This document shows positions 2,285 through 17,502 of a DNA stretch of 64,000 nt, in pieces. The DNA comes from Candidatus Poseidoniaceae archaeon (lineage in GTDB: Archaea; Thermoplasmatota; Poseidoniia; Poseidoniales; Poseidoniaceae), in the NCBI GenBank assembly GCA_965662895.1, contig CBFIJH010000003.1, forward strand, positions 29,150-93,149, written 5' to 3'. Below the pieces are notes generated by a model that made no database searches, was not told where the DNA came from, and worked only from the letters and a program-made list of their open reading frames with translations. Position numbers and translations under genes: made by a program. Positions within the stretch are counted from its first letter, which is position 1. The number at the start of each line of letters is the position of its first letter.

Positions 2285-3367
2285 ATGGCAGGTGCGAAAA
2301 GGACGCTGGCTACAGTTGTTGTCGTATTTCTTTCTCTCACGCTCCTCTCATTTTCGACGTCGGCTCAAGGAGGGGTTGGAAGCATCTCATTGGAATGCGG
2401 GGATGACCCTGAAATCAACGTTAAACCGGGCGAATATCAGGACGAAATCGTAGATTGTACCGTCACAAACGATGGAACGATTCTCGCTGAAAATATTGAA
2501 ATCACCGAAGAATGGGAAGGTGTTTACATCAACATGGTCATCTCTGATAACTCGTTTACACTTGAAGCAGGTGAATCTGCTGAATTTACAGTAACATTTT
2601 CTTGCGATGAGCGAACTGATGCTCAATATCAGTACGAATTTACGATTACGGCGACAGTTACTGCTTGGGGTCCACTTCCGGTCGAAAATACGCCACTCTC
2701 GCAAGTTGCAAATCATACCGGTGCTGCTACCATCCAAGAATACGGTCTTGTAACGCTGGATGTGCCCGATACCTCGTCACGAACGATGCAGACGAGCGAG
2801 GAGGTGTCCATCACCTTCCAAGTTGACAACGATGGTAATGCAGACGATACCATTGAAATTCGCATTACCAACGCAAACGAACTTGAGGAACTCGGATTTA
2901 TTCTGCAAAGCGGGGATTTCCTGCGAGCGAATGATGTCCAGTCTGGCGGTGTTTCAGATCAACTCGAGTTTATTGTTCGTGCTCCGAGTGAAGCGGAATC
3001 AGAGATTCGAAACCTCATTGTTCTTGAAGCGACCAGTTCACTTGACGGTTCCAAAGACGTTGTTGATTTCGACCTCATTGTAGAGGCAGAGCAACAAAAC
3101 GCTGGTCTTGGATCTGGACTTTCAGAAGTGAGCACGGATGACCTCGCACTCTATGGAGCCATTGGCGGTGGTGTTGTGTTAGTCTTTTTCCTTCTCATTA
3201 TCATTGGACGTGTTTCAAAACGTTCGTCAAAGAACAAGATTGCCGAGGAAAAACCTTCCGAACCACCGATTGAAATCGAGGATGAAGATGAATTGGATTT
3301 CGACCTTGATTTTGATGACGACGACTTCTTATCGAATGACCTTGATTCCATGTTGGATGATTTGTGA
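2285..3367 (+). CDS. Secreted, membrane-anchored acidic surface protein with Ig-like beta domains
   Basis: N-terminal signal peptide, two beta-rich repeats (VTNDG / VDNDGNADD), a C-terminal TM helix (IGGGVVLVFFLLIII) followed by basic residues, and an Asp-rich tail. Confidence 0.7.
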   Translation: MAGAKRTLATVVVVFLSLTLLSFSTSAQGGVGSISLECGDDPEINVKPGEYQDEIVDCTVTNDGTILAENIEITEEWEGVYINMVISDNSFTLEAGESAEFTVTFSCDERTDAQYQYEFTITATVTAWGPLPVENTPLSQVANHTGAATIQEYGLVTLDVPDTSSRTMQTSEEVSITFQVDNDGNADDTIEIRITNANELEELGFILQSGDFLRANDVQSGGVSDQLEFIVRAPSEAESEIRNLIVLEATSSLDGSKDVVDFDLIVEAEQQNAGLGSGLSEVSTDDLALYGAIGGGVVLVFFLLIIIGRVSKRSSKNKIAEEKPSEPPIEIEDEDELDFDLDFDDDDFLSNDLDSMLDDL

Positions 3368-3400
3368 CGCTGTCCGCTGATTTTGAAACATCTCAGAAGC

Positions 3401-3425
3401 CCCCTCTTTCCTGGAAAAGAAGGGG
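3401..3425. promoter_or_regulatory. Imperfect hairpin between the surface-protein gene and the fabI-PKS operon (possible terminator or regulatory element)
   Basis: CCCCTCTTTC-CTG-GAAAAGAAGGGG can pair with bulges; it lies in the intergenic region. Function is inferred. Confidence 0.3.
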
Positions 3426-3476
3426 AATACTCAAAGACGTGGTGTGCCCTGTAACACCTGCCAATCGGGGATGCGA

Positions 3477-4271
3477 ATGCTAGGTCTACGAGGAAAAACC
3501 GCTGTCGTGTTTGGTGTTGCAAGCGAAGATTCGATTGCATGGGCCATTTGTCAACAACTCGCAGAGGCGGGTGCAGACCTGTTTCTAGGCTATCAGAAAC
3601 GCTTCATGTCCCGAGTGTTTCAACTCAAGGATAAGTTGCCTGCAATCAAAGGATTTTATCCACTCGACGTTGCTGAAGATGAGACAACCCGAGAATTTTT
3701 TGAAGAATTCAAAAAGGACAATCCTGGTCGAGAAATCGATGTTCTTGTTCATGCCATTGGCTTTGCTCCACGAAGTTGCTTCGACCGACCAATTTTATTC
3801 GTTGAAGATGCGGACATCAACACCGCGATGACAATTTCAGCCAATTCTCTGCAGCGCTGTCTTAAATTTGCCCTGCCGTATTTGAGCGCAGGCTCTTCAA
3901 CAATCACCCTCACATATGCAGCTTCAACGCGTTACGTACCATCGTATGGAATTATGTCGATGGCAAAAGCAGCCTTGGAATGCTGGACTCGAGAACTCGC
4001 TTGCCACCTTGGACCACATGGACACCGAGTAAACAGCATTTCCTCAGGCCCGATTCGAACAATTGCTGCATCAGGCATCCCCGGTTTCGATCGTATTCTC
4101 GATCACGTTGAAGCCAATGCTCCTTTACGGCGAAATGTCAACCAATCTGATGTTGCAGGAACAACACTCTGGCTCGCTAGCCCCCTTTCAGCGGGCGTGA
4201 CAGGCCAATGCATCCATGTCGATGCAGGTTATTCAATCACCATGGTGCCACAGAGCATCATGGATGCATGA
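3477..4271 (+). CDS. fabI: Enoyl-[carrier protein] reductase, FabI family
   Basis: GVASEDSIAWAI Rossmann motif, VHAIGFAP, catalytic Y-x6-K (YGIMSMAK), SGPIRTIAASGI and GVTGQCIHVDAG. Start placed at ATG 3477 (3471 possible) rather than GTG 3444. Confidence 0.93.
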   Translation: MLGLRGKTAVVFGVASEDSIAWAICQQLAEAGADLFLGYQKRFMSRVFQLKDKLPAIKGFYPLDVAEDETTREFFEEFKKDNPGREIDVLVHAIGFAPRSCFDRPILFVEDADINTAMTISANSLQRCLKFALPYLSAGSSTITLTYAASTRYVPSYGIMSMAKAALECWTRELACHLGPHGHRVNSISSGPIRTIAASGIPGFDRILDHVEANAPLRRNVNQSDVAGTTLWLASPLSAGVTGQCIHVDAGYSITMVPQSIMDA

Positions 4272-4280
4272 GGTGTCGAC

Positions 4281-7200
4281 ATGTCGCTCACAACCGATGA
4301 CGGAAAACCATGCGATGGTCTCGAACAAGGTCCCTTTGAACCGATTGCGGTCATTGGCCTTGCAGCAATGATGCCCGATGCTGAAGATTTGCAATCGTTC
4401 TGGCAGAACATCATCGAATCGCATGTCAGCATCAAGGAAATTCGTGAGGGGCGTTGGCCTGGGCCTGTTGATCATTTCTGGATGGAAGGGCAACCAGGCG
4501 ATGTTGCACATGGTTACACATATTCCAAGATTGGTGCTTTTGTTGAAGGGTATGAGTTTGATTGGAGACGGTGGAGGCAACCTCCTGGAACGATTCCACA
4601 AATCGATCCTTGTCAGTTGTGGGCAGTGTCCGTCTCTGCTGCAGCTATCGAACAAGCAGGGTACGGCGAAGGGGAGAAAGAATTCCCTCGTGAACGAGCA
4701 GGCGTCGTTTTTGCAAACGCTCTCGGTGGCGAGAATCGAAACCTCTCAAACATCCGTGTTTGGTCAAACCACACCGCTGAGATAGCGAAGTCACATGGGA
4801 TGCCTCCATCGTCAAAAGATGAATTCATGGATTCCATTACTGAACATTCTCCCAAGGTTGATGAAGATACGATGCCCGGGGAACTGGCCAATGTTGTCGC
4901 TGGACGAGTTGCCAATTTGCTCGATCTACAAGGGCCGAATCATGCCATGGATGCAGCTTGTGCCTCATCGATGGCTGCAGTCTTGGATGCCTGCAGACTG
5001 CTTCAGACACGACAAGTGGATGTGATGCTTGCTGGAGCCACAGACCGAACAATGGATCCAGCCACATACGCGAAATTTAGTGCCATTGGAGCCCTCTCTC
5101 CAACCCATTCAACACCCTTTGACGCTCGTGCAAATGGCTTCGTTATGGGAGAAGGCGCTGGAGCCATGGTTCTCAAGCGTCTAAGCGATGCAATTGAGGA
5201 TGATGATACCATACACGCTGTAATTCGAGGTATCGGTGGGTCGAGTGACGGTCGTGGAAAAGGCATAACCGCTCCAAGTCAACGTGGCCAGATCCAGGCC
5301 ATTGCCCGTGCGTACAACCAAGCAGGTTATCCAGCATCCACCGTGGAGTTGGTCGAAGCACACGGAACATCGACAAAAGTTGGTGATGCTACAGAGCTTT
5401 CTACCCTTACGCGCCTATGGACCGATGCAGCATCTGGAGACAATGTTGCCGTTGGTTCCATCAAGTCCCAAATCGGTCATTTGAAGGCTGCAGCAGGCAT
5501 TGCCGGTATCATCAAATCGGTCATGGCTCTTCATCACAGAACCATCCCGCCTTCCGCAGGCTTTGAAACACCGAATCCAACAGTCGATTGGGAAAATATT
5601 CCTTTCTTTGTTCCCACCTCTCCTCTTGAATGGCCAAATCCTGAATCGCATCCACGGCGGGCCGGTGTCTCTGCCTTCGGATTTGGTGGAACGAATTTCC
5701 ATATCGCCTTAGAAGGATATGAGCCAGACTATCATCGAACAATGGCTGAAGAGTGGCAGCAACGCTGGAATGCTTATTCAAAATCATCACCGATTTCTGC
5801 TCCTTCAATCCTTGATGGTAAAGCCAAAGCGTCGCTAACGCACGATGAATTGAAAACCATCGAAGGCGGCGTTCTTCTTCTCTCAGGAGCATCCATCGGT
5901 GCACTCGTCACTCAACTTGAATCAACGTCATTTTCTGGAGCAAAGTTCGACGATGATCCTCGTGGTTTGCGTCTGTCAATGGCACTTCAATCAGCGAGTT
6001 CTTCCTTTGATCATCACCAATTGTGTCGTTTGGCCCTGATTGCAACCTCATGGGCTGAATTTGAAAAACGGAAAAAATTGGCACTCACGTCTTTGGCCGA
6101 CCCAGAAAAGTGGGGCTTCCTTCAGGCGCAAGGAATTCTCGTGAGCGATCAACCAGCATTACCCTCTGAAGCGAAAATTGCACACATGTATCCTGGTCAA
6201 GGCTCACAATATGTTGGTATGACACTTGATTTGTACCAACGATTTACTCCGGCCCAAGAAGTTTGGAAAGCCTCGGATTCAACCATGGTCGAGGTACTTG
6301 ATGGTGAAACACTTTCTTCATTCGTTTTGCGTGATGGGTTGAGCGATGATGAACGTAAAACTGCTGAACATAAACTCAAGCAAACTGAATACACACAACC
6401 TGCAATGCTGACAGCCGATTTAGCCATCGAGCATACGCTCAATGCATATGGGCATAACCCTGACATGGTTGCAGGGCATTCGCTCGGCGAATACGCTGCA
6501 CTGATGGTTTCAGGTATTCTCAACATGGATGGTGCACTGCGAGCGGCTGCGGCCCGTGGCACTGAAATGGGATCAGTTGAGATTGAAGACAAGGGACTGA
6601 TGGCGAGCGTTACAGCTCCGTACGAAGCCGTTGAGCGTATTCTTGAGGCAACGGATGGCTACGTCATTGCAGCCAACAAAAATTCTCCAAAAATGACGGT
6701 TATTGCCGGTGCAACAGAACCCGTACAAACTGCGATGAAAGCGTTTGAAAGTGAAGGATATAATTGCGTTCCACTCGCTACTAGCCACGCCTTCCATTCG
6801 AGTATCGTTGCTCCTGCAAATGAACCGCTCTACCGATTCCTTTCATCCCTGGAAATCAATTGGCCATCAATTCCAATCACTGCCAACGTTGATGGCACAT
6901 TCTATCCAAAGAATGGCTCCAATGCAACCGAGGGGATTCTGTCGAAATTAGCTCCCCAAATGGCATCTTCAGTCGAATGGACCTCCCAAATCAACACCAT
7001 GTATGATGCAGGTGCGAGAATTTTTGTTGAAGTTGGACCGAAGCGTGCGCTCACGATGTTTGCTTCGCAGATTCTTGAGGACAAGTCTCATCTTGCCATT
7101 ATGACCAATCATCCGAAACAAGGTGGAATCGCTTCTTTCCTCACTGCGATAGGAGCATTAGCACTTGCAGGGCGTCCACCGAAAATGATTCAAGGTACTT

Positions 7201-10200
7201 CGGAAGTGTTGAGCGAAGCGTTCAGGGCAGGGCCTATCGAAGCACATCAAGCATCCAGTTTACCGAAACGACCGAACCAAGAAGATCTGCGTGTTCGCGC
7301 TCGTCCATTACCAAACAAGGGCGGACAAAGCACTACATCTCCTGAGGCGCCAGTGGAAAATAACTCTGTTCAGAGCCACCCAACTGTTGCGGATTATGTC
7401 GGTGACCGAATTGCCCAGCATTGTGGATATCCTCCAATGTTCTGCCAAGGCATGGTCAACCTCCGGCTTGGTTTGGGATTGTCTGATAAATCCATCCAAA
7501 GCATTGTTTCTGGTATTGCTTCGGAAGCACAAACGGATGCAGAGGTTGACATTCATTCAGCAACGACAGCCGCTGACATTGAACGATGGGTTCGACAACC
7601 ACCTGCAGGTTGGATGCCACGGGTTCACCTTTCAAAATCATCAACTGCTCCAGCAGTTCAACAAGCGAATCACGACCCCATGGCGCAACGAAGAGCCGAT
7701 CCGTATGTCGTCACTGGAATCAGCCTCGGCCTTCCAGGAGGTGAGAGGGTTTTCGACAAGGATGTCTTTGAACGCCTGGTTCGAGGTGAGACTTGCATCG
7801 AGGAGGTTTCAGATGACTACAAGCAACGCCTCCTCGACAAGAACATCACTCGCCTCATCAAAGGACGAGACGGTTCTGTCAATATGGAACAAGCAACGGC
7901 ATTCGGAGATATTCCTCAACTTGCAGGAATAAAAGGAGCATTTGACCTTGCAGAAGAGTTTGGAATTGATCCGAAGATGGTTCTTGCCTGGGATATTACA
8001 ACCCAACTTGCCATGGCCTCTGGCCTTCTGGCACTTCGAGATGCAGGTATTCCGTTAACTCCAGAAGAACAAACAGGGAAAGGTGGTTTGCGAGTGATTC
8101 GAAACTGGCAAGTTCCGAGTGTTCATCGAGACCGCACAGGGATTGTTCTCGCATCGTGTTTCCCTGGATTGCAAATGGCCATGAAACATGCAAAATCAAA
8201 TGGCGATGATGGGGAAGATAAGTTCGATCGTCGCTATTTGTTCCAAGTTCTAACGATGGGACACTCACAGTTCGCACAATTTACGGGAATTCGGGGTCCA
8301 ACCACAACCATCAATCTCGCATGTGCATCTGCAACAGGTGCATTCCAAATCGCAGAGGATTGGCTTGCAGCCGACCGTGTGGATCGAGTTGTCATTCTTT
8401 CTGCTGATGATGTTACTGGTGACGATTTATGGGAATGGATTGGTAGTGGATTTGCTGCCACCGGTGCTGCATCAACCAACAACATTGTCGAAGAGGCAGC
8501 ACTACCATTCGACAAGCGACGCAATGGACTCGTACTCGGGATGGGTGCAGCGTCCTTTGTCGTTGAACGCAAGAGTTCAGCAGACGAGCGTGGCGTTCAA
8601 CCGATTGCAGAACTTTTGGGAGCAAAGACAGCAAATTCAGCATATCACGGAACTCGACTGGATGTTGAACACGTAGCCAGCACCGTTGATGAGTTTGTGG
8701 GAGAAATGGAACAACGGTGGGGACTCGACCGCCACAACATCGCCAAAGACCTGGTGTTTTATTCTCACGAAACATACACGCCTGCTCGTGGCGGAAGCGC
8801 ACAGAGCGAAGTGAAGGCATTACGGGAGACATTTGGCGATAGTACCGATTCAATGGTCATTGCCAATACGAAAGGATTCACCGGACATCCGATGGGTGTA
8901 GGAATCGAAGATGCAAGTATGTTCTATGGTCTCTTGACCAAACGCATACCTCCAATTGCAAATTATAAGGTACTCGATGAAGAACTCGGTGATCTCAATC
9001 TCTCGAAAGGGGGCGAGTATCCGAACCTTACCTACGGTTTGCGATTTGCCGCCGGTTTTGGTTCGCAAATTGGCCTCTCCTTTGTCCGAGCATGGCCGAT
9101 CGAAGGTGAACGAATCGATGGCAAGCGTCTCCTGGCATGGTGCCGAAATCTTGCTGGATCTCACGATATTCAACTCCGCCTCCTTGACAATAAATTGGTT
9201 GCGTATGTTGATGGTGATGACAATCTCCATGGAGGAATTCAAGGCGAGGCATATGCCATTACTGCACCGTTTGAGGGTCTCCAAACCGAGGTGACTGAGA
9301 AGAACCAGTCCGTGACTCAACCACCTGAAGTCGTACCAGAGGATGCAACACCGAAAGAAGTACCAGCAGCAACACCGTCAAGCGCTCCATTGAGCGGTGA
9401 TATGGTTGAAACCGTCATCGATGTGGTAGTCAAACATACCGGCTACCCTGCAGATTTCGTCGAATTGGATCAAGATTTGGAGGGTGAACTTGGAATTGAT
9501 ACGGTCAAGCAAGCAGAAATCATGGTTGATATTCGTCAACAATTCAATCTTCCATTGGATGAAAGTTTTGTTCTTTCTGAACACCCTACACTGAATCATA
9601 TGATCGGCTACATTCAGAGAATGCAAGGTGATGAAGCGGCTCCAGTTCCCTCACCATCTTCACCTTCCGTTGAACCTGAATCTTCTGCTGAAACATTTGA
9701 TGTTGAAGCATCGGAGGTTGAGACTCTTGACCACTCACTTCCAATATCTGATGAGAAAATGACCCAGCAGGTTATCGATGTCGTTGTCAAGCATACTGGC
9801 TATCCAGCCGATTTCATTGAACTCGATCAGGATTTGGAAGGTGAACTTGGTATTGATACTGTTAAACAAGCTGAAATTATGGTCGATATTCGGGAAAAGT
9901 TCAATCTACCCGTCGATGAGGACTTCTTGCTTTCAGAACACCCAACGCTCAATCATATGATTGGTTACATCGTTCGTATGAAAGGAGGTTTGTCCACAGT
10001 TTCTGTTCCGGACCCACAGCCGGTTTCAGAACCAACTCCGAAGCCAAAAGAAACCCCAGCTCAGCCCGTCGTGACCGATGTTGGTATCGAAGCATCATTG
10101 ATCGAAGTCGTTGTGAAACATACTGGCTACCCTGCAGATTTCATAGAAATGGATCAAGATTTGGAAGGTGAACTTGGAATTGACACAGTGAAACAAGCCG

Positions 10201-13022
10201 AGATCATGGTCGATGTTCGTGAGATATTCTCCTTGCCTGTGGATGAAGACTTCTTACTCTCAGAACATCCAACCTTGAATCATTTCGTTGCCTACATCGT
10301 GAAAATGAAGGGAGGAGCGGTTGATAGCGAATCTTCATCGGTAACTGAGGCAACTGCAGAACCTCCAGCAGCACCATCAAATGTTTCGATTGAACTGGAT
10401 GGGTGCCGAAGATGGCAGGTGGAAGTTGAGGAAGCAGAAACGATTGCGTCGACATTATCGCTTGATGGAACCGTTGTTGTCACGGATGATGGTTGGGGTA
10501 TTGCAGAACATCTTTGCGCACGTCTCGAAGCAAGAGGTCTTTCTACGGTCCGAGTAGGATTTGAAGCAGGAATACGAGATGTTTCAATACAATCCGAACA
10601 AGCTCGTACCGTTCATCGCGGTGATCCAGCAAATTCTGAGCACATTGAATCGATTACAACATCGCTCTCAACCATGAATGTGGTCGGTTTGCTGCATCTT
10701 GCACCCATGAAACTCGCATCGGCACGCTGGTCGGAGGATACTGTCCCATCTGCCCAAATCTCCCTAGCAGCGCATGGTTGGTTTGGTCTTCTCAAAGGAA
10801 TGGACTCCCGATTGGCTGAATTGGATGAAGGCATCATTGCAAGTGTCACTGCGATGGACGGGCGTCATGGAAACATTGGCGAGCGGTTCAATTCCATCCA
10901 ATGTGCAGCCTCAGGGGTTACCAAATCCTATTCCTTCGAACGTCCAAATTTGCGTTCACGCGCACTTGACCTTCATCCTGAACTTATCTTCGATGCCGAG
11001 TCGGTTGCTGAAGACATCGAAACGGAATTGTTTGAACGAGGTGGGGACGTCGAAGTCGGAATTGATCGCGATGGTCGCCGCTGGATTCTTGCTGCGTTTG
11101 CAGAGGAGGTTGTTGATGAACTTGAACCATTGAAGTCCGATGATGTGTGGTTGGTATCGGGTGGAGGCTCGGGCGTAACTGCGGCTTGCATCATAGGTGT
11201 AGCAGAGGCAAGTCAAAGTGCTGAAGCATCGTTCCATTTGCTCGGTCGGTCGGTCCTCATCGAGCAAACTGCTGATTGGTTGGATTGGAGCGAAGAAGAT
11301 CTCATGAAAGAAAAGATGGCTCTTCGAGAACGTATGATCGAAGCATCAAGTGCCGGTAAAGTCACAATGGTTGAATGGAACAATGCATGGCAGAGATTTA
11401 CCCGAAGCATGGATGTTTACAAGACACTCTCACAAATTGAGGCAACGGGTAACCGTGCCTTCTATCATTCCATTGATGTGACCGATGCTGAGGCACTATC
11501 GTCTCTTGGAGCATCACTTTCAAATCCAATTACAGGTGTTGTTCATGGGGCAGGGTTGGAGGATTCCAAACTTGTATCGGACAAAACGTGGGAAACATTC
11601 GACAAGGTTGTACGCGTAAAGATTGACGGATGGACTGCATTGATGAAAGCGGTGCAAAGTTCAGAGGGCGAATTGCGCTTTGCATCAGCATTCACATCGG
11701 TTGCAGGACGATTCGGAAACGGTGGACAAACCGATTATGCAGCTGCGAATTCGATTCTTGATGCTGAAATGGCACGCCTGACGGCAAAAGGAACATGCCG
11801 TGCAGTTGCCATTGGCTGGACAGGTTGGCGAGACGTCGGTATGGCAACGAGGGGCAGTATTGAATCGGTCTTTGAGGCTGCGGGCATTGAGACGTTGCCA
11901 GTAGAGGTTGGCGTCCAACTCTTTGTTGATGAAGCACTCCGAGGTGGAAAGCGCAGGGTGATTGCATGCGGATCGCTTGGATTGATGGATCGATTTGATG
12001 CGTTTCGAGAGGCACCGCTAATGCTACCTGCTGAAATGGCTGCTGTTATGGCAGATCCATCTCGATTTCCATTTATTGACAAAGTGCTCTCCTTCGATGA
12101 AGGCCAAATGGTCATGACACAAAGCACGCTCTCCGTTGCTGAGCATCCTTTCCTCAGCGATCACGCCATCGATGGTATCCCGTACCATCCAGGCGTCATG
12201 GCGATGGAAATGTTCGCAGAAAATGCACTGCTTCTTTGTCCAGACGCATGCCTGGCTGGTTTTGAAAACGTCACATTTGGTTTGCCAGTGAAAATCATGA
12301 AAGGTACAATGCGAGTACGAACGGAGGCGGTGGTTGATCGCACCGAAGGTGATGTAACTTGGGTAAAGTGCAGGCTTGTTTCCGACCTAACCAATTCGGA
12401 GGGCACCGTTTTCGGAGAACGCGAACATCATGAAGCTGTCATACGTTTGGTAAAGAAATCCGATGACCTGAGTACGTTCTTACAATCGGAAATCTCGCAA
12501 TTACCGACGATTGGAACGCCACCTTCAGGGCGTCTTGAACATCATGCCTCGTTCATTTACTTGCGCTATTTCCATGGCCCTCGTTTCCAATCGCACGGAG
12601 GTGTCCTGCGTGGTGTTGGAGATGCTTCACAGCCCGGAGTTGACGGTATCGCACTGATGCGTCACCAATTACCTGCTACCGATCAATTTGCTCTTGAACG
12701 AGATGGAGAGAATGTTTTGCTTGAAGCACTGCCAATGCTCATCGAGGCTGGGTTCCAAAACGCCGGTTTGGTTGCAATGGAATCAGAAGGATTCAGCAGT
12801 TTACCGGTTGGTATTGAATGGTCGACGCTACTTCGAGTTCCCGATGAAGACGAGCAATTGCGATTGCGTTCGATTCGTATCGCCTCAGAAGATGCAGGTG
12901 TAACGGTTCACGACGTTCTTGTTGTTGGACAGGATGATGCACCAGTGCTCGCATTGAAAGGACTTCGATTAAAGGCCATGGCACCCGTTCCTGATGACCA
13001 AAAATTCACGCTCGAGCGCTAA
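4281..13022 (+). CDS. Type I iterative PKS/FAS megasynthase, PfaA-related: KS-AT-(degenerate ACP)-KS-ACP-ACP-ACP-KR-DH
   Basis: KS1: DAACASS (C227), EAHGTST, KSQIGHL. AT: GQGSQ, GHSLG (S734), SHAFHS (malonyl-type). KS2: NLACAS (C1348), SHETYT (H1496), KGFTGH (H1536). Three ACPs: DLEGELGIDTVKQAE. KR: SGGGSGVT, VVHGAG, GQTDYAAAN. DH: HAIDGIPYHPG, FHGPRFQ. SD GAGGTG upstream. Confidence 0.95.
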   Translation: MSLTTDDGKPCDGLEQGPFEPIAVIGLAAMMPDAEDLQSFWQNIIESHVSIKEIREGRWPGPVDHFWMEGQPGDVAHGYTYSKIGAFVEGYEFDWRRWRQPPGTIPQIDPCQLWAVSVSAAAIEQAGYGEGEKEFPRERAGVVFANALGGENRNLSNIRVWSNHTAEIAKSHGMPPSSKDEFMDSITEHSPKVDEDTMPGELANVVAGRVANLLDLQGPNHAMDAACASSMAAVLDACRLLQTRQVDVMLAGATDRTMDPATYAKFSAIGALSPTHSTPFDARANGFVMGEGAGAMVLKRLSDAIEDDDTIHAVIRGIGGSSDGRGKGITAPSQRGQIQAIARAYNQAGYPASTVELVEAHGTSTKVGDATELSTLTRLWTDAASGDNVAVGSIKSQIGHLKAAAGIAGIIKSVMALHHRTIPPSAGFETPNPTVDWENIPFFVPTSPLEWPNPESHPRRAGVSAFGFGGTNFHIALEGYEPDYHRTMAEEWQQRWNAYSKSSPISAPSILDGKAKASLTHDELKTIEGGVLLLSGASIGALVTQLESTSFSGAKFDDDPRGLRLSMALQSASSSFDHHQLCRLALIATSWAEFEKRKKLALTSLADPEKWGFLQAQGILVSDQPALPSEAKIAHMYPGQGSQYVGMTLDLYQRFTPAQEVWKASDSTMVEVLDGETLSSFVLRDGLSDDERKTAEHKLKQTEYTQPAMLTADLAIEHTLNAYGHNPDMVAGHSLGEYAALMVSGILNMDGALRAAAARGTEMGSVEIEDKGLMASVTAPYEAVERILEATDGYVIAANKNSPKMTVIAGATEPVQTAMKAFESEGYNCVPLATSHAFHSSIVAPANEPLYRFLSSLEINWPSIPITANVDGTFYPKNGSNATEGILSKLAPQMASSVEWTSQINTMYDAGARIFVEVGPKRALTMFASQILEDKSHLAIMTNHPKQGGIASFLTAIGALALAGRPPKMIQGTSEVLSEAFRAGPIEAHQASSLPKRPNQEDLRVRARPLPNKGGQSTTSPEAPVENNSVQSHPTVADYVGDRIAQHCGYPPMFCQGMVNLRLGLGLSDKSIQSIVSGIASEAQTDAEVDIHSATTAADIERWVRQPPAGWMPRVHLSKSSTAPAVQQANHDPMAQRRADPYVVTGISLGLPGGERVFDKDVFERLVRGETCIEEVSDDYKQRLLDKNITRLIKGRDGSVNMEQATAFGDIPQLAGIKGAFDLAEEFGIDPKMVLAWDITTQLAMASGLLALRDAGIPLTPEEQTGKGGLRVIRNWQVPSVHRDRTGIVLASCFPGLQMAMKHAKSNGDDGEDKFDRRYLFQVLTMGHSQFAQFTGIRGPTTTINLACASATGAFQIAEDWLAADRVDRVVILSADDVTGDDLWEWIGSGFAATGAASTNNIVEEAALPFDKRRNGLVLGMGAASFVVERKSSADERGVQPIAELLGAKTANSAYHGTRLDVEHVASTVDEFVGEMEQRWGLDRHNIAKDLVFYSHETYTPARGGSAQSEVKALRETFGDSTDSMVIANTKGFTGHPMGVGIEDASMFYGLLTKRIPPIANYKVLDEELGDLNLSKGGEYPNLTYGLRFAAGFGSQIGLSFVRAWPIEGERIDGKRLLAWCRNLAGSHDIQLRLLDNKLVAYVDGDDNLHGGIQGEAYAITAPFEGLQTEVTEKNQSVTQPPEVVPEDATPKEVPAATPSSAPLSGDMVETVIDVVVKHTGYPADFVELDQDLEGELGIDTVKQAEIMVDIRQQFNLPLDESFVLSEHPTLNHMIGYIQRMQGDEAAPVPSPSSPSVEPESSAETFDVEASEVETLDHSLPISDEKMTQQVIDVVVKHTGYPADFIELDQDLEGELGIDTVKQAEIMVDIREKFNLPVDEDFLLSEHPTLNHMIGYIVRMKGGLSTVSVPDPQPVSEPTPKPKETPAQPVVTDVGIEASLIEVVVKHTGYPADFIEMDQDLEGELGIDTVKQAEIMVDVREIFSLPVDEDFLLSEHPTLNHFVAYIVKMKGGAVDSESSSVTEATAEPPAAPSNVSIELDGCRRWQVEVEEAETIASTLSLDGTVVVTDDGWGIAEHLCARLEARGLSTVRVGFEAGIRDVSIQSEQARTVHRGDPANSEHIESITTSLSTMNVVGLLHLAPMKLASARWSEDTVPSAQISLAAHGWFGLLKGMDSRLAELDEGIIASVTAMDGRHGNIGERFNSIQCAASGVTKSYSFERPNLRSRALDLHPELIFDAESVAEDIETELFERGGDVEVGIDRDGRRWILAAFAEEVVDELEPLKSDDVWLVSGGGSGVTAACIIGVAEASQSAEASFHLLGRSVLIEQTADWLDWSEEDLMKEKMALRERMIEASSAGKVTMVEWNNAWQRFTRSMDVYKTLSQIEATGNRAFYHSIDVTDAEALSSLGASLSNPITGVVHGAGLEDSKLVSDKTWETFDKVVRVKIDGWTALMKAVQSSEGELRFASAFTSVAGRFGNGGQTDYAAANSILDAEMARLTAKGTCRAVAIGWTGWRDVGMATRGSIESVFEAAGIETLPVEVGVQLFVDEALRGGKRRVIACGSLGLMDRFDAFREAPLMLPAEMAAVMADPSRFPFIDKVLSFDEGQMVMTQSTLSVAEHPFLSDHAIDGIPYHPGVMAMEMFAENALLLCPDACLAGFENVTFGLPVKIMKGTMRVRTEAVVDRTEGDVTWVKCRLVSDLTNSEGTVFGEREHHEAVIRLVKKSDDLSTFLQSEISQLPTIGTPPSGRLEHHASFIYLRYFHGPRFQSHGGVLRGVGDASQPGVDGIALMRHQLPATDQFALERDGENVLLEALPMLIEAGFQNAGLVAMESEGFSSLPVGIEWSTLLRVPDEDEQLRLRSIRIASEDAGVTVHDVLVVGQDDAPVLALKGLRLKAMAPVPDDQKFTLER
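9400..10310 (+). repeat. Three tandem ACP-domain repeats within the megasynthase, separated by Pro/Ser/Glu-rich linkers
   Basis: Near-identical ~75-aa units VVVKHTGYPADF.E.DQDLEGELGIDTVKQAEIMVD.R..F.LP.DE.F.LSEHPTLNH at ~9400, ~9755 and ~10085, with many synonymous DNA differences. Confidence 0.92.
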
Positions 13023-13031
13023 GGTGATGTT

Positions 13032-13793
13032 TTGACCGTCACCATTCGCTGGATACCTCTCGGGGATGAATTGCGGTGCCTTTTAGCAACGTGCCCAATC
13101 GTGGAGAAAAACCCCAACGAATTGAAACTCATTCATTGGGATGAGATCCGAACATTCAAAACGCAAAAAAGGAGCAATGAACATCTATCTGCTCGATGGC
13201 TGTTGGAACAAGCGCTCAATGAGTGGGGTGGTATTGATTGCTCGCAAATCAACGTTGCGCGAACAAACGAAAGGGCGCCCTACTTGGAAACTATCCAAGG
13301 GTTATGGGTTCAACCGACCTTACCCAACATCTCGATTTCACATAGCGAAAATCTCGCATGTGTCGCCCTTATCGACCGTGGGTGGACCGTCGGGATCGAT
13401 GCAGAACCTCTCCGACGTCCACCTCAACCTGCTGTCTACGATATGATGGCAAGAGGTGAAGAGTTGGCTCAACTCAAATCTGGGAAGCTCGATGCATTAT
13501 GGGCATGGACTTCGAAGGAAGCAATCCAAAAGGCCGCCCGATTGGGCATGCATCTCAACCCACGAAACATCGACCTTACTTCCCTTAGTGAAAAGAATAA
13601 AATTGCAATTGAAAATTTAGAATTTCAATTGGAAAATTTGTCGAATAATGATTACAAAATCATCCTTGCATGGGGGAGAGATGTTCATCCAATTCGCTCA
13701 AAGGAGGACGATCTTTTGGATGCAACTCGAGAAGCGATGCATGCAACCGATGATTGGTCGGTGGGTTGCTCCACCATAAGAAAAAGTGGATAA
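13032..13793 (+). CDS. 4'-phosphopantetheinyl transferase (Sfp/PfaE type)
   Basis: SISHS, VGIDAE and WTSKEAIQKA motifs. TTG start 4 nt after AAGGTGA; begins 9 nt after the PKS stop. Confidence 0.9.
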   Translation: MTVTIRWIPLGDELRCLLATCPIVEKNPNELKLIHWDEIRTFKTQKRSNEHLSARWLLEQALNEWGGIDCSQINVARTNERAPYLETIQGLWVQPTLPNISISHSENLACVALIDRGWTVGIDAEPLRRPPQPAVYDMMARGEELAQLKSGKLDALWAWTSKEAIQKAARLGMHLNPRNIDLTSLSEKNKIAIENLEFQLENLSNNDYKIILAWGRDVHPIRSKEDDLLDATREAMHATDDWSVGCSTIRKSG

Positions 13794-14213
13794 TCACTTG
13801 TTCCAAAAGCGACTTGACTCCCACTCAAGACCCAGGAGAATACCTATCTCCGTTAGAATTACGTAATTAAACAACAAGTATGACAAAAATGCTACGGTTA
13901 CGACTAAAATCGATGTGTTGAGTACCTTCCGTCGTTGACGCTTAACATCATCGAACGTACAAATGCCTCGATTCCGGAAGTAAATGGTGAGACCTGTAAC
14001 AATGGAAATCGATGCAACAGCGAGCATGGTTGGTCGGAACCATGCATATCCATCTTCTCCCCAATAGAGCGTGTTGGATAAGGCAGCAGCACTACTGACA
14101 CTAGCGAGCCCAAATAGAACGAGAACAACGCTTGGTAAACAACACATGGATGCTATAATGGTCGAGGTCGATACAAGTTTAACCAATGATTTGATGTTAT
14201 GTTCTTGTTGCAT
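13794..14213 (-). CDS. Small membrane protein, MerT-like heavy-metal transporter candidate
   Basis: Three hydrophobic segments, with ASMCCLPSVVLVLFG (MerT-type CC pair in TM1), WFRP and a later Cys (RGIC). Start moved to ATG 14213, which follows GGAG. Confidence 0.55.
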   Translation of the reverse strand: MQQEHNIKSLVKLVSTSTIIASMCCLPSVVLVLFGLASVSSAAALSNTLYWGEDGYAWFRPTMLAVASISIVTGLTIYFRNRGICTFDDVKRQRRKVLNTSILVVTVAFLSYLLFNYVILTEIGILLGLEWESSRFWNK

Positions 14214-14226
14214 GCTTTCAACTCCA

Positions 14227-15876
14227 TTAGAAACAATCAGCGAATTGGCTTGCTTCGCTAGGATTTGTATATGCTTGTATTGGAAGCACGTCAACACCAT
14301 CGGACCATTTCCCCATATCTGTCAGCATTCCAGTATTCACAAGATTTGCATAAGCAAAATCGGCGGTATTCACGTCTCCTCGGCTTTCAGCAACAATCCA
14401 ATCCGCTTGAGCATCCACACGTCGATAAAATGCCCAATCTGCCAGTGTATCATGCGCCTCGTTTGCTGGGATGTAGTGTGTGGCAACCAGCCGAGGAAAA
14501 CCGTAGCGATCACTTGGTATGTACAACAGCAGTGTTTGGTTCTTATCGACATTTTCAAACAAAGCATGCTGATGAACACTGTTGCATTGGCCTACTGTCA
14601 TGTCGTCTTCACTAACGACGAGATGAACAATTGTATTTTCTGGAAGATTTGAATAGTCAGGCGTCCATTCTTCTTGAACGGGTCGGGCTGCAGCCATTTC
14701 GGTGTTGACAAACAGAGTTTCACTTCCCCATCCCATTGATTGTGCCATCCCTAGAGCTTGGAGTGAATACGCTCCTCCAAGACTATGGCCTCCAATCCAG
14801 AGATGTTCAGGCATGATGGTAAGATTCCCTAGTATGTTGTCGATTTCGGTATCCCGAGCCGATGTGTTGATGATTTCATTCAAGCGCAGAAGTGCGGATT
14901 GAATCGAGAGCATTCTGGGAACATGGTGGGGCCAGTCCGACGTGCCATCAACAACGGTCGCATCAAAATCATCTGCACCTTCTGGACGGACATCTGTAGG
15001 ATACTGGATGTATGCGACGACCATTCCTTTCGCAGAGAGATGGTCGATCCAGTCAGTGTAGGAATCAATGGACGGATTGTTAAATGCATGAAACAAAACA
15101 GCGAGTGGAACGCCTTCGATTCCAGGCTCCTCTGGTAGATGAGGAAGTGTGAGATACACAGAGAATTCAATCTCATTTTCCGTTGGCCCTTGTATATCGA
15201 CAACTTCGTCTGGTAATTCATAGGCATAACGGATTGTGGTCCGATCAAACGGTCCAGCCTCAGCACCATAGCCCATTGTAGGGGCGAGTGGAGGGGTCGG
15301 TGCGATACCAATCAGTGCAGGAATCCCGGGCATGACCAACCAAGCTGCAAGAAATACAGTCATGACATGCAAGACTGCGGTTCCTTTTCCTTTCCAATCT
15401 TGATTTGAATCAGGAAGCCCAGGCGGGCCGCGAACAGCGATTAACGCTCCGAGTAAAAGAACACCATAAATCGTAGGAAGCAAGAGGAATGCACCGCGTA
15501 AGTAGCGATAATCCATGATGACGAAGATGATCCACGATGCTAGGACTGCACCAATGATACCGTAAAACAACCCTTGGATGGGTTTTGAGAGGTGGCGTCC
15601 TCGATGGTGCTGAATGGAAGAATAGATGCACAACGCAAGGAATGTTGCACAAAAGAGCGTGATGATGCCAACATTCTCTCGAAGAAGAAACGTCCATGAA
15701 AGCGTACGAACCGCTTGTGGCCAAACAGCATTTTCAACGGACTCGCCTTGAATGAGAATCAGAAGCGACTCTGCCAAGGCAACAAATGCGCCAAACGCTA
15801 TCATTGCTGTGGGAAAGGACGGTGATGAGGTGAACCGATGAAGAGGGGAAACTACCTGAGAATCCTCACCCTCCAT
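14227..15876 (-). CDS. Membrane-anchored alpha/beta hydrolase (lipase/esterase-like)
   Basis: About 5 N-terminal TM helices, then a GHSLGG nucleophile elbow with candidate Asp (SEDD) and His (ATH). Confidence 0.75.
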   Translation of the reverse strand: MEGEDSQVVSPLHRFTSSPSFPTAMIAFGAFVALAESLLILIQGESVENAVWPQAVRTLSWTFLLRENVGIITLFCATFLALCIYSSIQHHRGRHLSKPIQGLFYGIIGAVLASWIIFVIMDYRYLRGAFLLLPTIYGVLLLGALIAVRGPPGLPDSNQDWKGKGTAVLHVMTVFLAAWLVMPGIPALIGIAPTPPLAPTMGYGAEAGPFDRTTIRYAYELPDEVVDIQGPTENEIEFSVYLTLPHLPEEPGIEGVPLAVLFHAFNNPSIDSYTDWIDHLSAKGMVVAYIQYPTDVRPEGADDFDATVVDGTSDWPHHVPRMLSIQSALLRLNEIINTSARDTEIDNILGNLTIMPEHLWIGGHSLGGAYSLQALGMAQSMGWGSETLFVNTEMAAARPVQEEWTPDYSNLPENTIVHLVVSEDDMTVGQCNSVHQHALFENVDKNQTLLLYIPSDRYGFPRLVATHYIPANEAHDTLADWAFYRRVDAQADWIVAESRGDVNTADFAYANLVNTGMLTDMGKWSDGVDVLPIQAYTNPSEASQFADCF

Positions 15877-15920
15877 GAATCATAGATTCCCGTTGGGTTC
15901 AAAAAACGTCGTTTAAACTA

Positions 15921-17330
15921 TCAGGCGTTTATGTTTCGAATTTCAGGTGTCTGATCCGCTATCATGAACTCAAGCATGGCAGCCCACATAACAAATTCCA
16001 TGCTTTTTTCAAGTTCTTCAACACCACCAACCATTTCGATCATGTTGTCCAAGGTGTCGTCAGGAGAGTGATATGCACTGTAATCGGAGTCGTAGGCGCC
16101 AAGGTGGAAGATGGTTTGAGCGCCTAGGTCGCGGAAGGTGACGTGGTCCGATCGGCCGAATGTGTCTTCATGTACATCAAGGACAAGGTCTTCATGGTCT
16201 TCCCAGTGCTGGTCGCAGCCTGATCCATATGTGCCGTCAATTCGTAAATCCATAGGCGCTTCGAGGATGTTTCTGTGAACATGGTCAAGAACCGTTGTTA
16301 TTTCCACATCTTGGACTTCAGGATCGAAATCTGGACCAGACCAAGCATGGTAGGGGTAAGGCTCACCAGTCGGTTTGACAGCCGGATAGGAAATGCCCAT
16401 CATGTCCATGTTGATGTAGAATCGAAGTTCTTTATCGGTTGGTAGACAATAATCGCACTCGTTGTTTGCAAAAGCATTCGAACCTCGAAGTCCTTCTTCT
16501 TCCGAGGACCACAATGCGAGGAATGTATCGCATTCAACTTCAATGTCAACAAATGCCTTTGCAAATAGCATCATGCTTACAGTACCGCCAGTGTTGTCGT
16601 AAGCCCCTTCGTATGTACCACCGCCTGGTGGTCCACCTGGGAACATGATGTCCATGTGTCCTCCCATGCCCTGAACACATGAAGCGTCTCGTCCGCGCTT
16701 CCATGCGATAACGTTCAAACTCTCGGGTTCTGCAGGATTTCCGTGGTCAAAGACGCGAAGAATGTGGGTCTCATATCCCAAACCTTCGAAATGACCTTGG
16801 AAGAAGGAAGCTGCTCGTTCAAAGGCAGGGTTTGGTGATCCCATCCATCGATTGATGTACCCTCCGCATTGTGTTGTATCAGGGCACACATTGGTGATGT
16901 ATTCCATCTTATCCATCCATTCTTTGCCGTTAACGATCGGTGTGCCATTGGTGACTTGCATCTCGTACGTGTCACCAGAACCATCTTGATGGACAATTGT
17001 CAACTTGACTTCATCGACATATGGAGTCAACAAGAGCCTACCATTGATGGATTCTCCCTCAACGGCTGCATATCCATTTGGTACGATGTATCCATCAACA
17101 AACAGCATCACATCGGTTGGAACTGAAATAGCTCGGCCGTTACCTAGGAGTTGAAACTCATGCCATTCTCCGCTCTTCAGTACAGCGTTTTCTGGCATTT
17201 GATAATCGATTTGAAAAACAATAGGGACGCCTTCCTGGACGATTTCATCTTCTCCGAAACAACCTGAGAGTGATGCAAGCAGCATAAGCGAAACGAGGAA
17301 CACGCCTTTTGATGCTCTCTTGACCAGCAT
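15921..17330 (-). CDS. M28 family metallopeptidase, lipoprotein
   Basis: Lipobox LSGC; GHMD, GAYDN, SEEEGLRGS, NMDM, RSDH and YHSPDD motifs. Start set at ATG 17330 because the longer ORF overlaps the tRNA. Confidence 0.88.
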   Translation of the reverse strand: MLVKRASKGVFLVSLMLLASLSGCFGEDEIVQEGVPIVFQIDYQMPENAVLKSGEWHEFQLLGNGRAISVPTDVMLFVDGYIVPNGYAAVEGESINGRLLLTPYVDEVKLTIVHQDGSGDTYEMQVTNGTPIVNGKEWMDKMEYITNVCPDTTQCGGYINRWMGSPNPAFERAASFFQGHFEGLGYETHILRVFDHGNPAEPESLNVIAWKRGRDASCVQGMGGHMDIMFPGGPPGGGTYEGAYDNTGGTVSMMLFAKAFVDIEVECDTFLALWSSEEEGLRGSNAFANNECDYCLPTDKELRFYINMDMMGISYPAVKPTGEPYPYHAWSGPDFDPEVQDVEITTVLDHVHRNILEAPMDLRIDGTYGSGCDQHWEDHEDLVLDVHEDTFGRSDHVTFRDLGAQTIFHLGAYDSDYSAYHSPDDTLDNMIEMVGGVEELEKSMEFVMWAAMLEFMIADQTPEIRNINA

Positions 17331-17374
17331 GTCTTGGCCTGTTCGCACCCACTCAAAGGCTTTGTTGGTCGAGG

Positions 17375-17446
17375 TGCGGATAGCGGGAGTCGAACCCACG
17401 ACATAAGGTTGGAAACCTCAGATGATAACCACTTCACCATATCCGC
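17375..17446 (-). tRNA. tRNA-Gly (anticodon TCC), intronless
   Basis: Reverse complement GCGGATA-TG-GTGAAGTGGTTATCAT-C-TGAGG-TTTCCAA-CCTTA-TGTC-GTGGG-TTCGACT-CCCGC-TATCCGC-A: acceptor stem GCGGATA/TATCCGC, T-loop TTCGACT, anticodon TCC. Confidence 0.95.
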
Positions 17447-17502
17447 ACGGTGGTAGACTGTCCGAACAAGCACTCTTTTTTGAGCGCATCGGTCAAAAGA
17501 CG

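What the first reader, a model, noticed from the sequence alone, without database searches (positions are those of the whole stretch)
9501..10187. All three ACP domains carry Thr instead of the invariant phosphopantetheine Ser, via three different codons
Seen: each ACP reads ELGID-T-VKQAE (T1741, T1860, T1969), with codons ACG at 9501, ACT at 9858 and ACA at 10185. Established: carrier proteins are modified on the Ser of G(I/L)DS (PfaA: LGIDSIKRVE). Inference: synonymous divergence with Thr retained in every copy argues for selection rather than decay or sequencing error. There is no canonical Ser-ACP in the operon, yet a dedicated PPTase is adjacent. This suggests Thr-linked phosphopantetheinylation by a specialised PPTase, or a different tethering chemistry.
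Basis: partly seen in the sequence, partly recalled or inferred. Interest (0 to 1): 0.92.

Follow-up and report, generated by a model that had tools for sequence, protein, structure and literature searches.

The report
Threonine-type acyl carrier domains
A marine archaeon's only fatty-acid/polyketide synthase carries threonine where carrier proteins normally have the serine that holds their cofactor arm, and this is a conserved trait of a very large, undescribed family of such synthases, each linked to its own activating enzyme.

Summary
ORF 4281-13022 encodes a PfaA-like synthase with three Pfam-recognised carrier (ACP) domains. Each reads ELGIDTVKQAE, with Thr (ACG 9501, ACT 9858, ACA 10185) at the start of helix II, where solved ACPs have the phosphopantetheine Ser.

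The genome is a Marine Group II (Poseidoniales) archaeon. It holds no other carrier domain and only one PPTase, the gene directly downstream.

Thr is a family trait:
- 217 of 218 homologous synthases fetched are Thr-only.
- 235 of 239 true ACP copies in 79 genome loci carry Thr. These loci come from archaea and at least seven bacterial phyla.
- 109 of the 150 best hits in a word-free HMMER search carry Thr; the other 41 are canonical Ser types.

In 61 Poseidoniales genomes found through the Pfam model, 38 are Thr-only, 3 Ser-only and none mixed. Ser lineages are nested among Thr lineages, so only hydroxyl residues ever occupy the site.

A Sfp-type PPTase lies beside the synthase in 70 of 79 loci, and is fused to it in 4. 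The other 9 loci end before that point.

Best reading: Thr is O-phosphopantetheinylated by the linked PPTase. This is untested, and I found no paper describing it.

The parts
3444..4271 (+). FabI-like enoyl reductase, the first gene of the operon. It ends 10 nt before the synthase start.
   Evidence: Pfam adh_short_C2 at 234.5 bits. The best NCBIfam hits are FabI models, all below their equivalog cut-offs (222.5 against 391).
4281..13022 (+). PfaA-like iterative synthase of 2913 aa. Domain order: KS1, AT, degenerate ACP-like domain, KS2, three Thr-type ACPs, KR, PKS-type DH.
   Evidence: Pfam domains. TIGR02813 PfaA scores 907.7 bits, below its cut-off of 1010.1. Catalytic motifs were read by eye in the translation: DAACASS, EAHGTST, GHSLGE, HAFH, LACASATG, YAAAN, HxxxGxxxxP.
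7413..7634 (+). Degenerate ACP-like domain (residues ~1045-1118) between AT and KS2. It has no conserved hydroxyl residue at the attachment position.
   Evidence: Alignment with the true ACPs and 15 homologs. The site reads S/T/D followed by D/E/P.
9411..9614 (+). ACP 1. Thr1741 is codon ACG at 9501-9503.
   Evidence: PF00550 match at G000:C3:38560-38763; sequence.
9765..9971 (+). ACP 2. Thr1860 is codon ACT at 9858-9860.
   Evidence: PF00550 match at G000:C3:38914-39120. AF2 model with helix II starting at the Thr. Foldseek matches to ACPs.
10098..10298 (+). ACP 3. Thr1969 is codon ACA at 10185-10187.
   Evidence: PF00550 match at G000:C3:39247-39447; sequence.
11412..12983 (+). KR (residues 2378-2518) and PKS-type dehydratase (residues 2598-2901).
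   Evidence: Pfam KR, PKS_DH_N and PS-DH.
13032..13793 (+). Sfp-type 4'-phosphopantetheinyl transferase of 253 aa with a TTG start, 10 nt after the synthase stop. It is the only PPTase in the genome.
   Evidence: Pfam ACPS at 35.0 bits (cut-off 25) and AASDHPPT_N at 28.5 (cut-off 27). R47, R55, G121, D123, E163, K167 and G172 are invariant in 46 homologs. A profile of these hits Sfp 1qr0/4mrt at E 7e-18. It is the sole PF01648 match in G000.

Best explanation
The three domains are working acyl carrier domains of an iterative, PfaA-like fatty-acid/polyketide synthase in a Marine Group II archaeon. I propose the following mechanism.

1. The hydroxyl of the conserved Thr at the N-terminus of helix II replaces the usual Ser as the acceptor of 4'-phosphopantetheine from CoA.
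2. The transfer is made by the Sfp-type PPTase encoded 10 nt downstream. That enzyme has no other possible substrate in this genome.
3. The holo-ACPs carry malonyl and growing acyl thioesters between KS1/KS2, AT, KR and DH of the same polypeptide and the FabI-like reductase encoded upstream.
4. The product is a fatty acyl chain, the likely input to the 'putative fatty-acid pathway' already noted for these archaea.

Shown here:
- the ACP fold and the position of the Thr;
- family-wide conservation of Thr under purifying selection;
- replacement by Ser only;
- obligatory genetic linkage to a PPTase, including fusions;
- absence of any other carrier domain or PPTase in the genome;
- intact catalytic motifs.

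Inferred, not shown:
- that Thr is actually modified;
- that the PPTase is adapted to Thr;
- the identity of the product.
For: Position and fold:
- The Thr aligns to the Ser of solved ACPs.
- It begins helix II in the AF2 model (pLDDT 86).
- The model's fold matches ACPs at TM 0.73-0.91.

Conservation:
- 217 of 218 synthases from two protein searches are Thr-only, giving 777 Thr against 2 Ser domains. These searches are word-biased.
- In 79 genome loci there were 245 ACP-profile hits: 235 Thr, 4 Ser, 4 degenerate-domain residues (D, D, E, G) and 2 truncated. So 235 of the 239 true ACP copies carry Thr.
- A word-free HMMER search found 7288 cluster representatives at E<=1e-3. Of the best 150, 109 carry Thr-type ACPs and 41 are Ser-only canonical types.
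- All four Thr codons are used.

Only hydroxyl residues occupy the site:
- In a motif-independent sample of 61 Poseidoniales genomes, 41 have the synthase: 38 Thr-only, 3 Ser-only, 0 mixed.
- The Ser lineages need 3 changes on the tree, at least 2 of them forced by well-supported branches, and they are nested among Thr lineages.
- One bacterial fragment, P0335, carries one DSIKQAE copy and two DTVKQAE copies in tandem.

PPTase linkage:
- A homolog is present in 70 of 79 loci. The 9 without one all end within 1.5 kb after the last ACP.
- PPTase and ACPs share one open frame in L044, L064, L077 and L079.
- All 8 further archaeal loci fetched have one downstream.

This genome:
- 3 PP-binding domains and 1 PPTase, no others.
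- All PF00550 matches in the 61 genomes lie in frames of 1071-3058 aa, so no stand-alone ACP was seen.
- KS domains occur only in this protein.
- Carboxyltransferases and PlsC-type acyltransferases are present.

PPTase catalytic core: the Sfp-type residues are invariant.

Complex model (PPTase + CoA + Mg + ACP): score 0.87 against a best control of 0.39. That mark was reached by 58 of 80 solved complexes and 2 of 110 mismatched pairs. The runs agree in at least 94% of contacts and partner pLDDT is at least 87. ACP residues 37-39 (D-T-V) and PPTase E125, W159 and E163 lie in the interface. Sfp-PCP and AcpS-ACP complexes are solved, so this pass may only reflect likeness to them.
Against: - There is no direct evidence of modification.
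- In E. coli the ACP S36T mutant 'cannot be post-translationally modified by 4'-PP' and does not complement (PMC3340395, passages read). Thr is therefore not a generic PPTase substrate.
- I found no PPTase residue that distinguishes Thr-linked from Ser-linked enzymes. H104 is replaced by T only in L022 and L037. E143 is absent from all 4 Ser-lineage PPTases, but it is also non-acidic in 10 of 70 Thr-linked ones.
- The PPTases match no named NCBIfam equivalog. The best is HetI at E 2.4e-15, far below its cut-off, so they cannot be placed in a clade of known specificity.
- Most hosts are uncultured, and the product is unknown.
- Two of the three large counts come from searches biased towards the DTVKQ word.
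Confidence: 0.65

Rival explanations
1. Thr is phosphopantetheinylated, but there is nothing special about it. Ordinary Sfp-type PPTases of this lineage accept Ser or Thr alike. Thr then persists through drift, or through gene conversion among the tandem repeats, not through a Thr-adapted enzyme or any benefit of a Thr linkage.
For: - The same PPTase lineage sits beside both Ser-type and Thr-type archaeal synthases.
- Ser and Thr interchanged 2-3 times.
- One protein, P0335, mixes Ser and Thr copies.
- The catalytic motifs are identical to Sfp.
Against: - Thr holds in more than 97% of copies across archaea and at least seven bacterial phyla, with heavy synonymous turnover. That is hard to reconcile with neutrality, since Ser is one base change away.
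- No archaeal protein mixes Ser and Thr: 0 of 41 genomes.
- The window's repeats are diverged at 23-32 of 80 codons, which argues against recent homogenisation.
Confidence: 0.2
2. The Thr domains are unmodified pseudo-carriers with a scaffolding or docking role. The synthase then works on CoA-bound intermediates, as proposed for ACP-independent fatty-acid synthesis in archaea (recalled from the literature, not read here), or is not a working synthase.
For: - E. coli ACP S36T is not modified (PMC3340395).
- Most archaea lack ACP (recalled).
- One clearly degenerate ACP-like domain exists in the same protein.
Against: - It does not explain why a catalytically intact PPTase is kept beside or fused to the synthase in 70 of 70 loci with enough sequence, nor why it is the only PPTase in a genome with no other carrier.
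- A pseudo-domain should tolerate Ala, Gly or Asp at the site, as the degenerate domain does. Instead only Thr or Ser is seen in the repeats. The single exception is a seventh copy with Ala in P0237.
- Tandem multiplication to 3-9 copies is the hallmark of working PUFA-synthase ACPs.
Confidence: 0.1
3. A different prosthetic group or tether is used. Examples are direct O-acylation of Thr, or a dephospho-CoA-type group as in citrate lyase and malonate decarboxylase ACPs.
For: None from the tools.
Against: - The enzyme genetically coupled to the ACPs belongs to the PPTase superfamily, with the CoA/Mg-binding residues of Sfp.
- The KS, AT, KR and DH motifs are those of thioester chemistry.
- Reversion to Ser in five archaeal genomes leaves the rest of the motif intact.
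Confidence: 0.04

Closest known systems
PUFA synthase subunit PfaA with tandem ACPs (LGIDSIKRVE) and its PPTase PfaE
   Same: - The order KS-AT-(ACP)n-KR-DH and the tandem carrier domains.
- A dedicated Sfp-type PPTase.
- TIGR02813 is the best NCBIfam hit.
- In the word-free search the nearest Ser-type relatives are exactly the DLGIDSIKRVEIL proteins.
   Different: - Thr replaces Ser at the attachment site.
- The helix-II motif is DTVKQAE.
- A degenerate ACP-like domain and a second KS are inserted before the ACPs.
- The TIGR02813 score is below its cut-off (907.7 against 1010.1).
- No PfaD is found in the genome.
- The enoyl reductase is FabI-like.
- The host is an archaeon.
E. coli AcpP / AcpS, with the S36T mutant used as a non-modifiable control
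   Same: The same four-helix fold, and the same position at the N-terminus of helix II.
   Different: In E. coli, Thr at this site abolishes modification and function (PMC3340395). Here Thr is the conserved natural state of thousands of domains.
Enediyne polyketide synthases (PKSE: KS-AT-ACP-KR-DH-PPTase). The architecture is recalled, not retrieved by any search.
   Same: An iterative, PUFA-synthase-like enzyme with its own PPTase. In 4 relatives (L044, L064, L077, L079) the PPTase is fused to the C-terminus, as in PKSE.
   Different: - In the window the PPTase is a separate gene.
- There are several tandem ACPs.
- The ACPs carry Thr rather than Ser.
- No PKSE model appeared among the best 25 NCBIfam hits.
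PigH tandem ACPs of prodigiosin biosynthesis (PDB 5y08)
   Same: It is the best sequence match among solved structures (E 3.7e-14). It is also a tandem pair, and it shares the (T/S)GY element of helix I and LG(I/V)D.
   Different: PigH has Ser (DSI, DSV) and belongs to a different pathway.

Membership tests
Carrier protein, Pfam PP-binding (PF00550) | Profile score above the gathering threshold | tested here: met
   88.9 bits against a cut-off of 20.8, in 3 stretches. Each domain scores 32-40 bits on its own.
Carrier protein, Pfam PP-binding (PF00550) | Four-helix ACP fold | tested here: met
   AF2 model with pLDDT 86.2 and helices at 2-17, 38-52 and 68-78. The Foldseek top hits are all ACPs, TM 0.73-0.91.
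Carrier protein, Pfam PP-binding (PF00550) | Conserved Ser of the (D/H)S(L/I) motif at the start of helix II | tested here: not met
   Thr in all three copies, aligned to the Ser of solved ACPs.
Carrier protein, Pfam PP-binding (PF00550) | Covalent 4'-phosphopantetheine on that residue | not testable with these tools
   This needs mass spectrometry of the protein.
PUFA synthase PfaA (NCBIfam TIGR02813) | Score above the curated cut-off | tested here: not met
   907.7 bits against 1010.1.
PUFA synthase PfaA (NCBIfam TIGR02813) | Tandem ACPs between AT and KR | tested here: met
   Three copies here, and 2-9 in relatives.
PUFA synthase PfaA (NCBIfam TIGR02813) | Partner subunits of the pfa cluster, tested with PfaD (TIGR02814) | tested here: not met
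   The best match in G000 is 19 bits against a cut-off of 449. KS domains occur in this protein only. The genome is 92% complete.
Sfp-type 4'-phosphopantetheinyl transferase (the downstream gene) | Two-domain PPTase profiles above threshold | tested here: met
   PF01648 at 35.0 (cut-off 25) and PF22624 at 28.5 (cut-off 27).
Sfp-type 4'-phosphopantetheinyl transferase (the downstream gene) | Mg/CoA-binding and catalytic residues (G-x-D-x-E; W-x-x-K-E-A-x-x-K) | tested here: met
   D123, E163 and K167 are invariant; E125, W159 and K162 are at least 90% conserved in 46 sequences. They align to Sfp GIDIE and KES.
Sfp-type 4'-phosphopantetheinyl transferase (the downstream gene) | Membership of a named PPTase equivalog (HetI, AcpT, EntD, PptT, Npt, AusB) | tested here: not met
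   The best hit is HetI: 20.7 bits for the window's protein and E 2.4e-15 among the 46, against a cut-off of 370 bits.
Enoyl-ACP reductase FabI (the upstream gene) | NCBIfam FabI equivalog cut-off | tested here: not met
   The best score is 222.5 bits against 391. The Pfam adh_short_C2 domain itself is clear at 234.5 bits.

The most novel reading that the evidence does not exclude
O-(4'-phosphopantetheinyl)-threonine is a real, widespread post-translational modification that has been overlooked. A whole clade of PfaA-like synthases uses Thr-type carrier domains charged by co-inherited PPTases. The clade comprises thousands of protein clusters in Poseidoniales archaea and in Myxococcota, Chloroflexota, Acidobacteriota, Actinomycetota, Elusimicrobiota and Spirochaetota. 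This forms a carrier-activation system insulated from the host's Ser-specific AcpS and Sfp enzymes. In Marine Group II archaea it is the only carrier-protein system, and it supplies the fatty acids for their proposed mixed archaeal/bacterial membranes.
Probability: 0.4. Interest if true: 0.9.

Novelty: new variant of a known kind. Interest (0 to 1): 0.78.

Why it matters
The Ser that carries phosphopantetheine is treated as invariant in fatty-acid, polyketide and non-ribosomal peptide synthases. Ser-to-Thr is used as a null mutation (PMC3340395).

A large natural family with Thr at that site would have four consequences:
1. It adds a new modified residue to the list of protein modifications.
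2. It shows that annotation and genome-mining rules which demand the Ser wrongly call such domains inactive.
3. It may offer a carrier/PPTase pair orthogonal to Sfp and AcpS for engineering.
4. It gives a concrete, testable entry point into whether the most abundant surface-ocean archaea make fatty acids. That question bears on the 'lipid divide'. A putative fatty-acid pathway in these archaea is mentioned in PMC6962369 (passages read), without any mention of carrier proteins.

Tried and rejected
Alternative attachment sites
- The ACP-like domain after the AT ('LGLSDKSIQ') is rejected. Its Ser is not conserved; homologs read LGMDD, LGLTD or LGLSP.
- The Ser of 'LLSEHPTL' lies where PKS ACPs have the FDYPT loop (my reading of the alignment). 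It is R, K or S in the bacterial homologs.

PPTase residues that track Ser versus Thr
- Only H104 (replaced by T in L022 and L037 alone) and E143 stood out. With 2-3 independent events and exceptions among Thr-linked enzymes, I do not count this as evidence.

Expression
- The look-up of sequencing runs listed no RNA holder. It returned 4 rows, all from one study and of unknown kind.

Literature
- No paper held any of six phrasings of threonine phosphopantetheinylation.
- The string DTVKQ occurs in 3 unrelated papers.
- Broader searches returned nothing on Thr-type ACPs.
- Shulse & Allen 2011 (PMC3098273) has 0 occurrences of 'threonine' or 'serine'.
- The Marine Group II genome papers PMC6461757 and PMC6336850 have 0 occurrences of 'acyl carrier' or 'polyketide'.
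- Villanueva et al. 2017 is not held.
- Subscription journals and supplementary files were not visible and could hold a prior description.

Artefact or odd genetic code
- Rejected. Three different ACN codons are used here, and hundreds of independent assemblies agree.

Full report
WHAT IS THERE

The window lies in a 1.86-Mb, 92%-complete genome. Its closest protein relatives are labelled Candidatus Poseidoniales / Poseidoniaceae, the Marine Group II archaea.

Three tightly packed genes on the + strand form the unit:
- a FabI-like enoyl reductase (3444-4271);
- a 2913-aa PfaA-like synthase (4281-13022);
- a Sfp-type phosphopantetheinyl transferase (13032-13793).

The genes are separated by 10-nt gaps.

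Pfam finds KS, AT, three PP-binding domains, KR and a PKS-type DH in the synthase. A second KS follows a degenerate ACP-like domain. NCBIfam's PfaA model is the best hit but stays below its cut-off, at 907.7 against 1010.1 bits. The catalytic motifs of KS1, AT, KS2, KR and DH are all present in the translation (read by eye).

THE OBSERVATION

It is correct to the base. The codons are ACG 9501, ACT 9858 and ACA 10185, which encode T1741, T1860 and T1969, each in ELGIDTVKQAE.

The Thr column aligns with the Ser of DS(L/I) in solved ACPs. It opens helix II in an AlphaFold2 model with pLDDT 86. That model's fold matches ACPs at TM 0.73-0.91.

The three copies differ at 23-32 synonymous codons out of 80 while keeping the core identical. 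They are therefore old copies under purifying selection.

THR IS A FAMILY TRAIT, NOT A LOCAL ODDITY

- Homologs of the ACP region number 4092 protein clusters at E<=1e-3.
- All 120 listed clusters, from archaea and bacteria, have Thr in every copy.
- A second search seeded with a Ser-type relative returned Thr types again. Over both searches, 217 of 218 synthases are Thr-only, with 777 Thr against 2 Ser domains. These two searches depend on shared 5-residue words and are biased.
It returned 79 loci from Poseidoniales, Myxococcota (including Bradymonadia), Chloroflexota, Acidobacteriota, Actinomycetota (including the cultured Amycolatopsis sp. NPDC021455), Elusimicrobiota and Spirochaetota.
- In these loci, 235 of 245 ACP-profile hits carry Thr and 4 carry Ser. 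The other 6 hits are the degenerate domain or truncated copies.
- The word-free HMMER search of 1.84 billion cluster representatives found 7288 proteins at E<=1e-3 and 1569 at E<=1e-30.
- Of its best 150, 109 carry Thr-type ACPs. The other 41 are Ser-only, of the canonical DLGIDSIKRVEIL type or a DLGIDSIKKAQLF type.

So the nearest Ser relatives of this family are the classical PUFA-synthase ACPs.

SER AND THR INTERCHANGE, AND NOTHING ELSE DOES

I drew a motif-independent sample with Pfam PF00550 in 61 Poseidoniales species genomes. The synthase was found in 41 of them:
- family f1: 30 of 30, counting the window's genome;
- family f2: 2 of 2;
- family f3: 9 of 29.

Every match lies in a frame of 1071-3058 aa, so no stand-alone ACP was seen. 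Reading the site in all 41 gave 38 Thr-only, 3 Ser-only (G009, G059, G015: ELGIDSIKQAE) and none mixed. Two further archaeal loci, L022 and L037, read ELGVDSVKQAE.

On a tree of the KR-DH region the Ser state needs three changes. At least two are forced by starred branches. The Ser rows are nested among Thr rows, and all six bacterial outgroup rows carry Thr (the earlier FastTree run agrees for L022 and L037). L125 and several other rows sit on long branches, so the exact number of switches is uncertain.

The Ser codons are TCA, TCA, TCT and TCG, one base away from ACN. One bacterial fragment, P0335, carries one Ser copy and two Thr copies in tandem.

I read it as the strongest sequence-level argument that the hydroxyl group is what the position is for.

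THE PPTASE

An iterative profile search found a homolog in 70 of 79 loci. The nine without one all end at most 1.5 kb after the last ACP, which is inside the synthase gene.

In all archaeal loci and most bacterial ones the PPTase follows the synthase directly. In some Actinomycetota and Acidobacteriota loci it lies about 5 kb further on. In L047 it sits after a single-chain acetyl-CoA carboxylase. In L044, L064, L077 and L079 the ACPs and the PPTase share one open frame. All eight additional archaeal loci have the PPTase downstream.

Across 46 sequences R47, R55, G121, D123, E163, K167 and G172 are invariant. The profile hits Sfp (1qr0, 4mrt) at E 7e-18, with the Mg/CoA motifs aligned. No member reaches any named NCBIfam equivalog.

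In the window's genome this is the only PPTase, and the three Thr-ACPs are the only carrier domains. The enzyme therefore has nothing else to act on.

A complex model of PPTase, CoA, Mg and ACP scored 0.87 against a best control of 0.39. That mark was reached by 58 of 80 solved complexes and 2 of 110 mismatched pairs. Contacts agreed in at least 94% across runs, and partner pLDDT was at least 87. ACP residues D37-T38-V39 lie against PPTase E125, W159 and E163. PPTase-carrier complexes are already solved, so this shows likeness to them, not proof.

WHAT SPEAKS AGAINST

- Nothing here measures the modification.
- In E. coli, ACP S36T is the standard non-modifiable control (PMC3340395, passages).
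- I found no convincing PPTase residue that co-varies with Ser or Thr.
- The same PPTase lineage serves both states. 'Specialised' therefore remains open.

CONTEXT

The genome has no PfaD, and no KS outside this protein apart from two weak matches (31.1 and 22.9 bits) in 403-aa frames that I did not examine further. It has three acyl-CoA carboxyltransferases and three PlsC-type acyltransferases, and no PlsX was found.

[quoted passage not shown] They are also proposed to have mixed membranes (PMC6461757, passages). Neither paper, nor PMC6336850, mentions carrier proteins.

NOVELTY

I found no description of Thr-linked phosphopantetheine or of this motif. The limits are that subscription journals and supplements were not searchable.

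I rate it a new variant of a known kind: a carrier-protein/PPTase system with a different acceptor residue. My confidence that Thr is the modified residue is 0.65. The rivals are 0.2 for 'modified, but with no adaptation', 0.1 for 'unmodified pseudo-carrier' and 0.04 for 'other chemistry'.

Noticed in passing
window 7413-7634 (P0001 residues ~1045-1118): A fourth, degenerate ACP-like domain lies between AT and KS2. It keeps the helix-I 'GYP' element, but the attachment site reads S/T/D followed by D/E/P across homologs. It is probably a structural or docking remnant.
   Followed up: partly
L044, L064, L077, L079 (also L042, L046, L052 not resolved): In Bradymonadia, one Thermoplasmatota and one unclassified bacterium, the PPTase is fused to the C-terminus of the Thr-ACP synthase in one open frame. 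This is reminiscent of enediyne PKSE enzymes (recalled).
   Followed up: partly
L047 (Amycolatopsis sp. NPDC021455), 3093-20212: The bacterial version of the cluster has, in order, an acyl-CoA dehydrogenase-like gene, the Thr-ACP synthase, a single-chain eukaryote-like acetyl-CoA carboxylase (BC-BCCP-ACC_central-CT in one frame) and the PPTase on the opposite strand.
   Followed up: partly
The genome search sample of the order: The synthase is present in all 30 sampled genomes of the window's family and both genomes of a second family, but in only 9 of 29 genomes of the third family. The genomes lacking it are the small ones, 1.3-1.6 Mb.
   Followed up: no
PPTases of L022 and L037; alignment: The His of the SISHS motif (P0122 H104; H in 66 of 70 Thr-linked PPTases) is Thr in the two GVDSVKQAE-type archaea, but not in the other two Ser lineages. 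E143 is missing from all four Ser-lineage PPTases. There are too few independent events to interpret this.
   Followed up: partly
P0335, P0237, P0243, P0303: Rare mixed proteins exist. P0335 has one DSIKQAE copy and two DTVKQAE copies. P0237 has six Thr copies and a seventh with Ala. P0243 and P0303 have four Thr copies plus one unrelated Ser-type carrier domain.
   Followed up: no
P0259, P0284, P0304 and about 20 others: A second large Ser-type class of tandem ACPs has the motif DLGIDSIKKAQLF, distinct from the classical PfaA DSIKRVE type. I did not identify its hosts.
   Followed up: no
window 791-1327 (+): A 178-aa ORF has a partial match to the TATA-binding protein domain (PF00352, 32 bits, positions 39-81 only). 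This is consistent with an archaeal host.
   Followed up: no
window 14227-23127 (-): Downstream on the other strand are a 549-aa ORF with no Pfam match, an M28 peptidase and an 1874-aa subtilase (S8). These fit the protein-degrading lifestyle described for these archaea. They are not part of the synthase unit.
   Followed up: no
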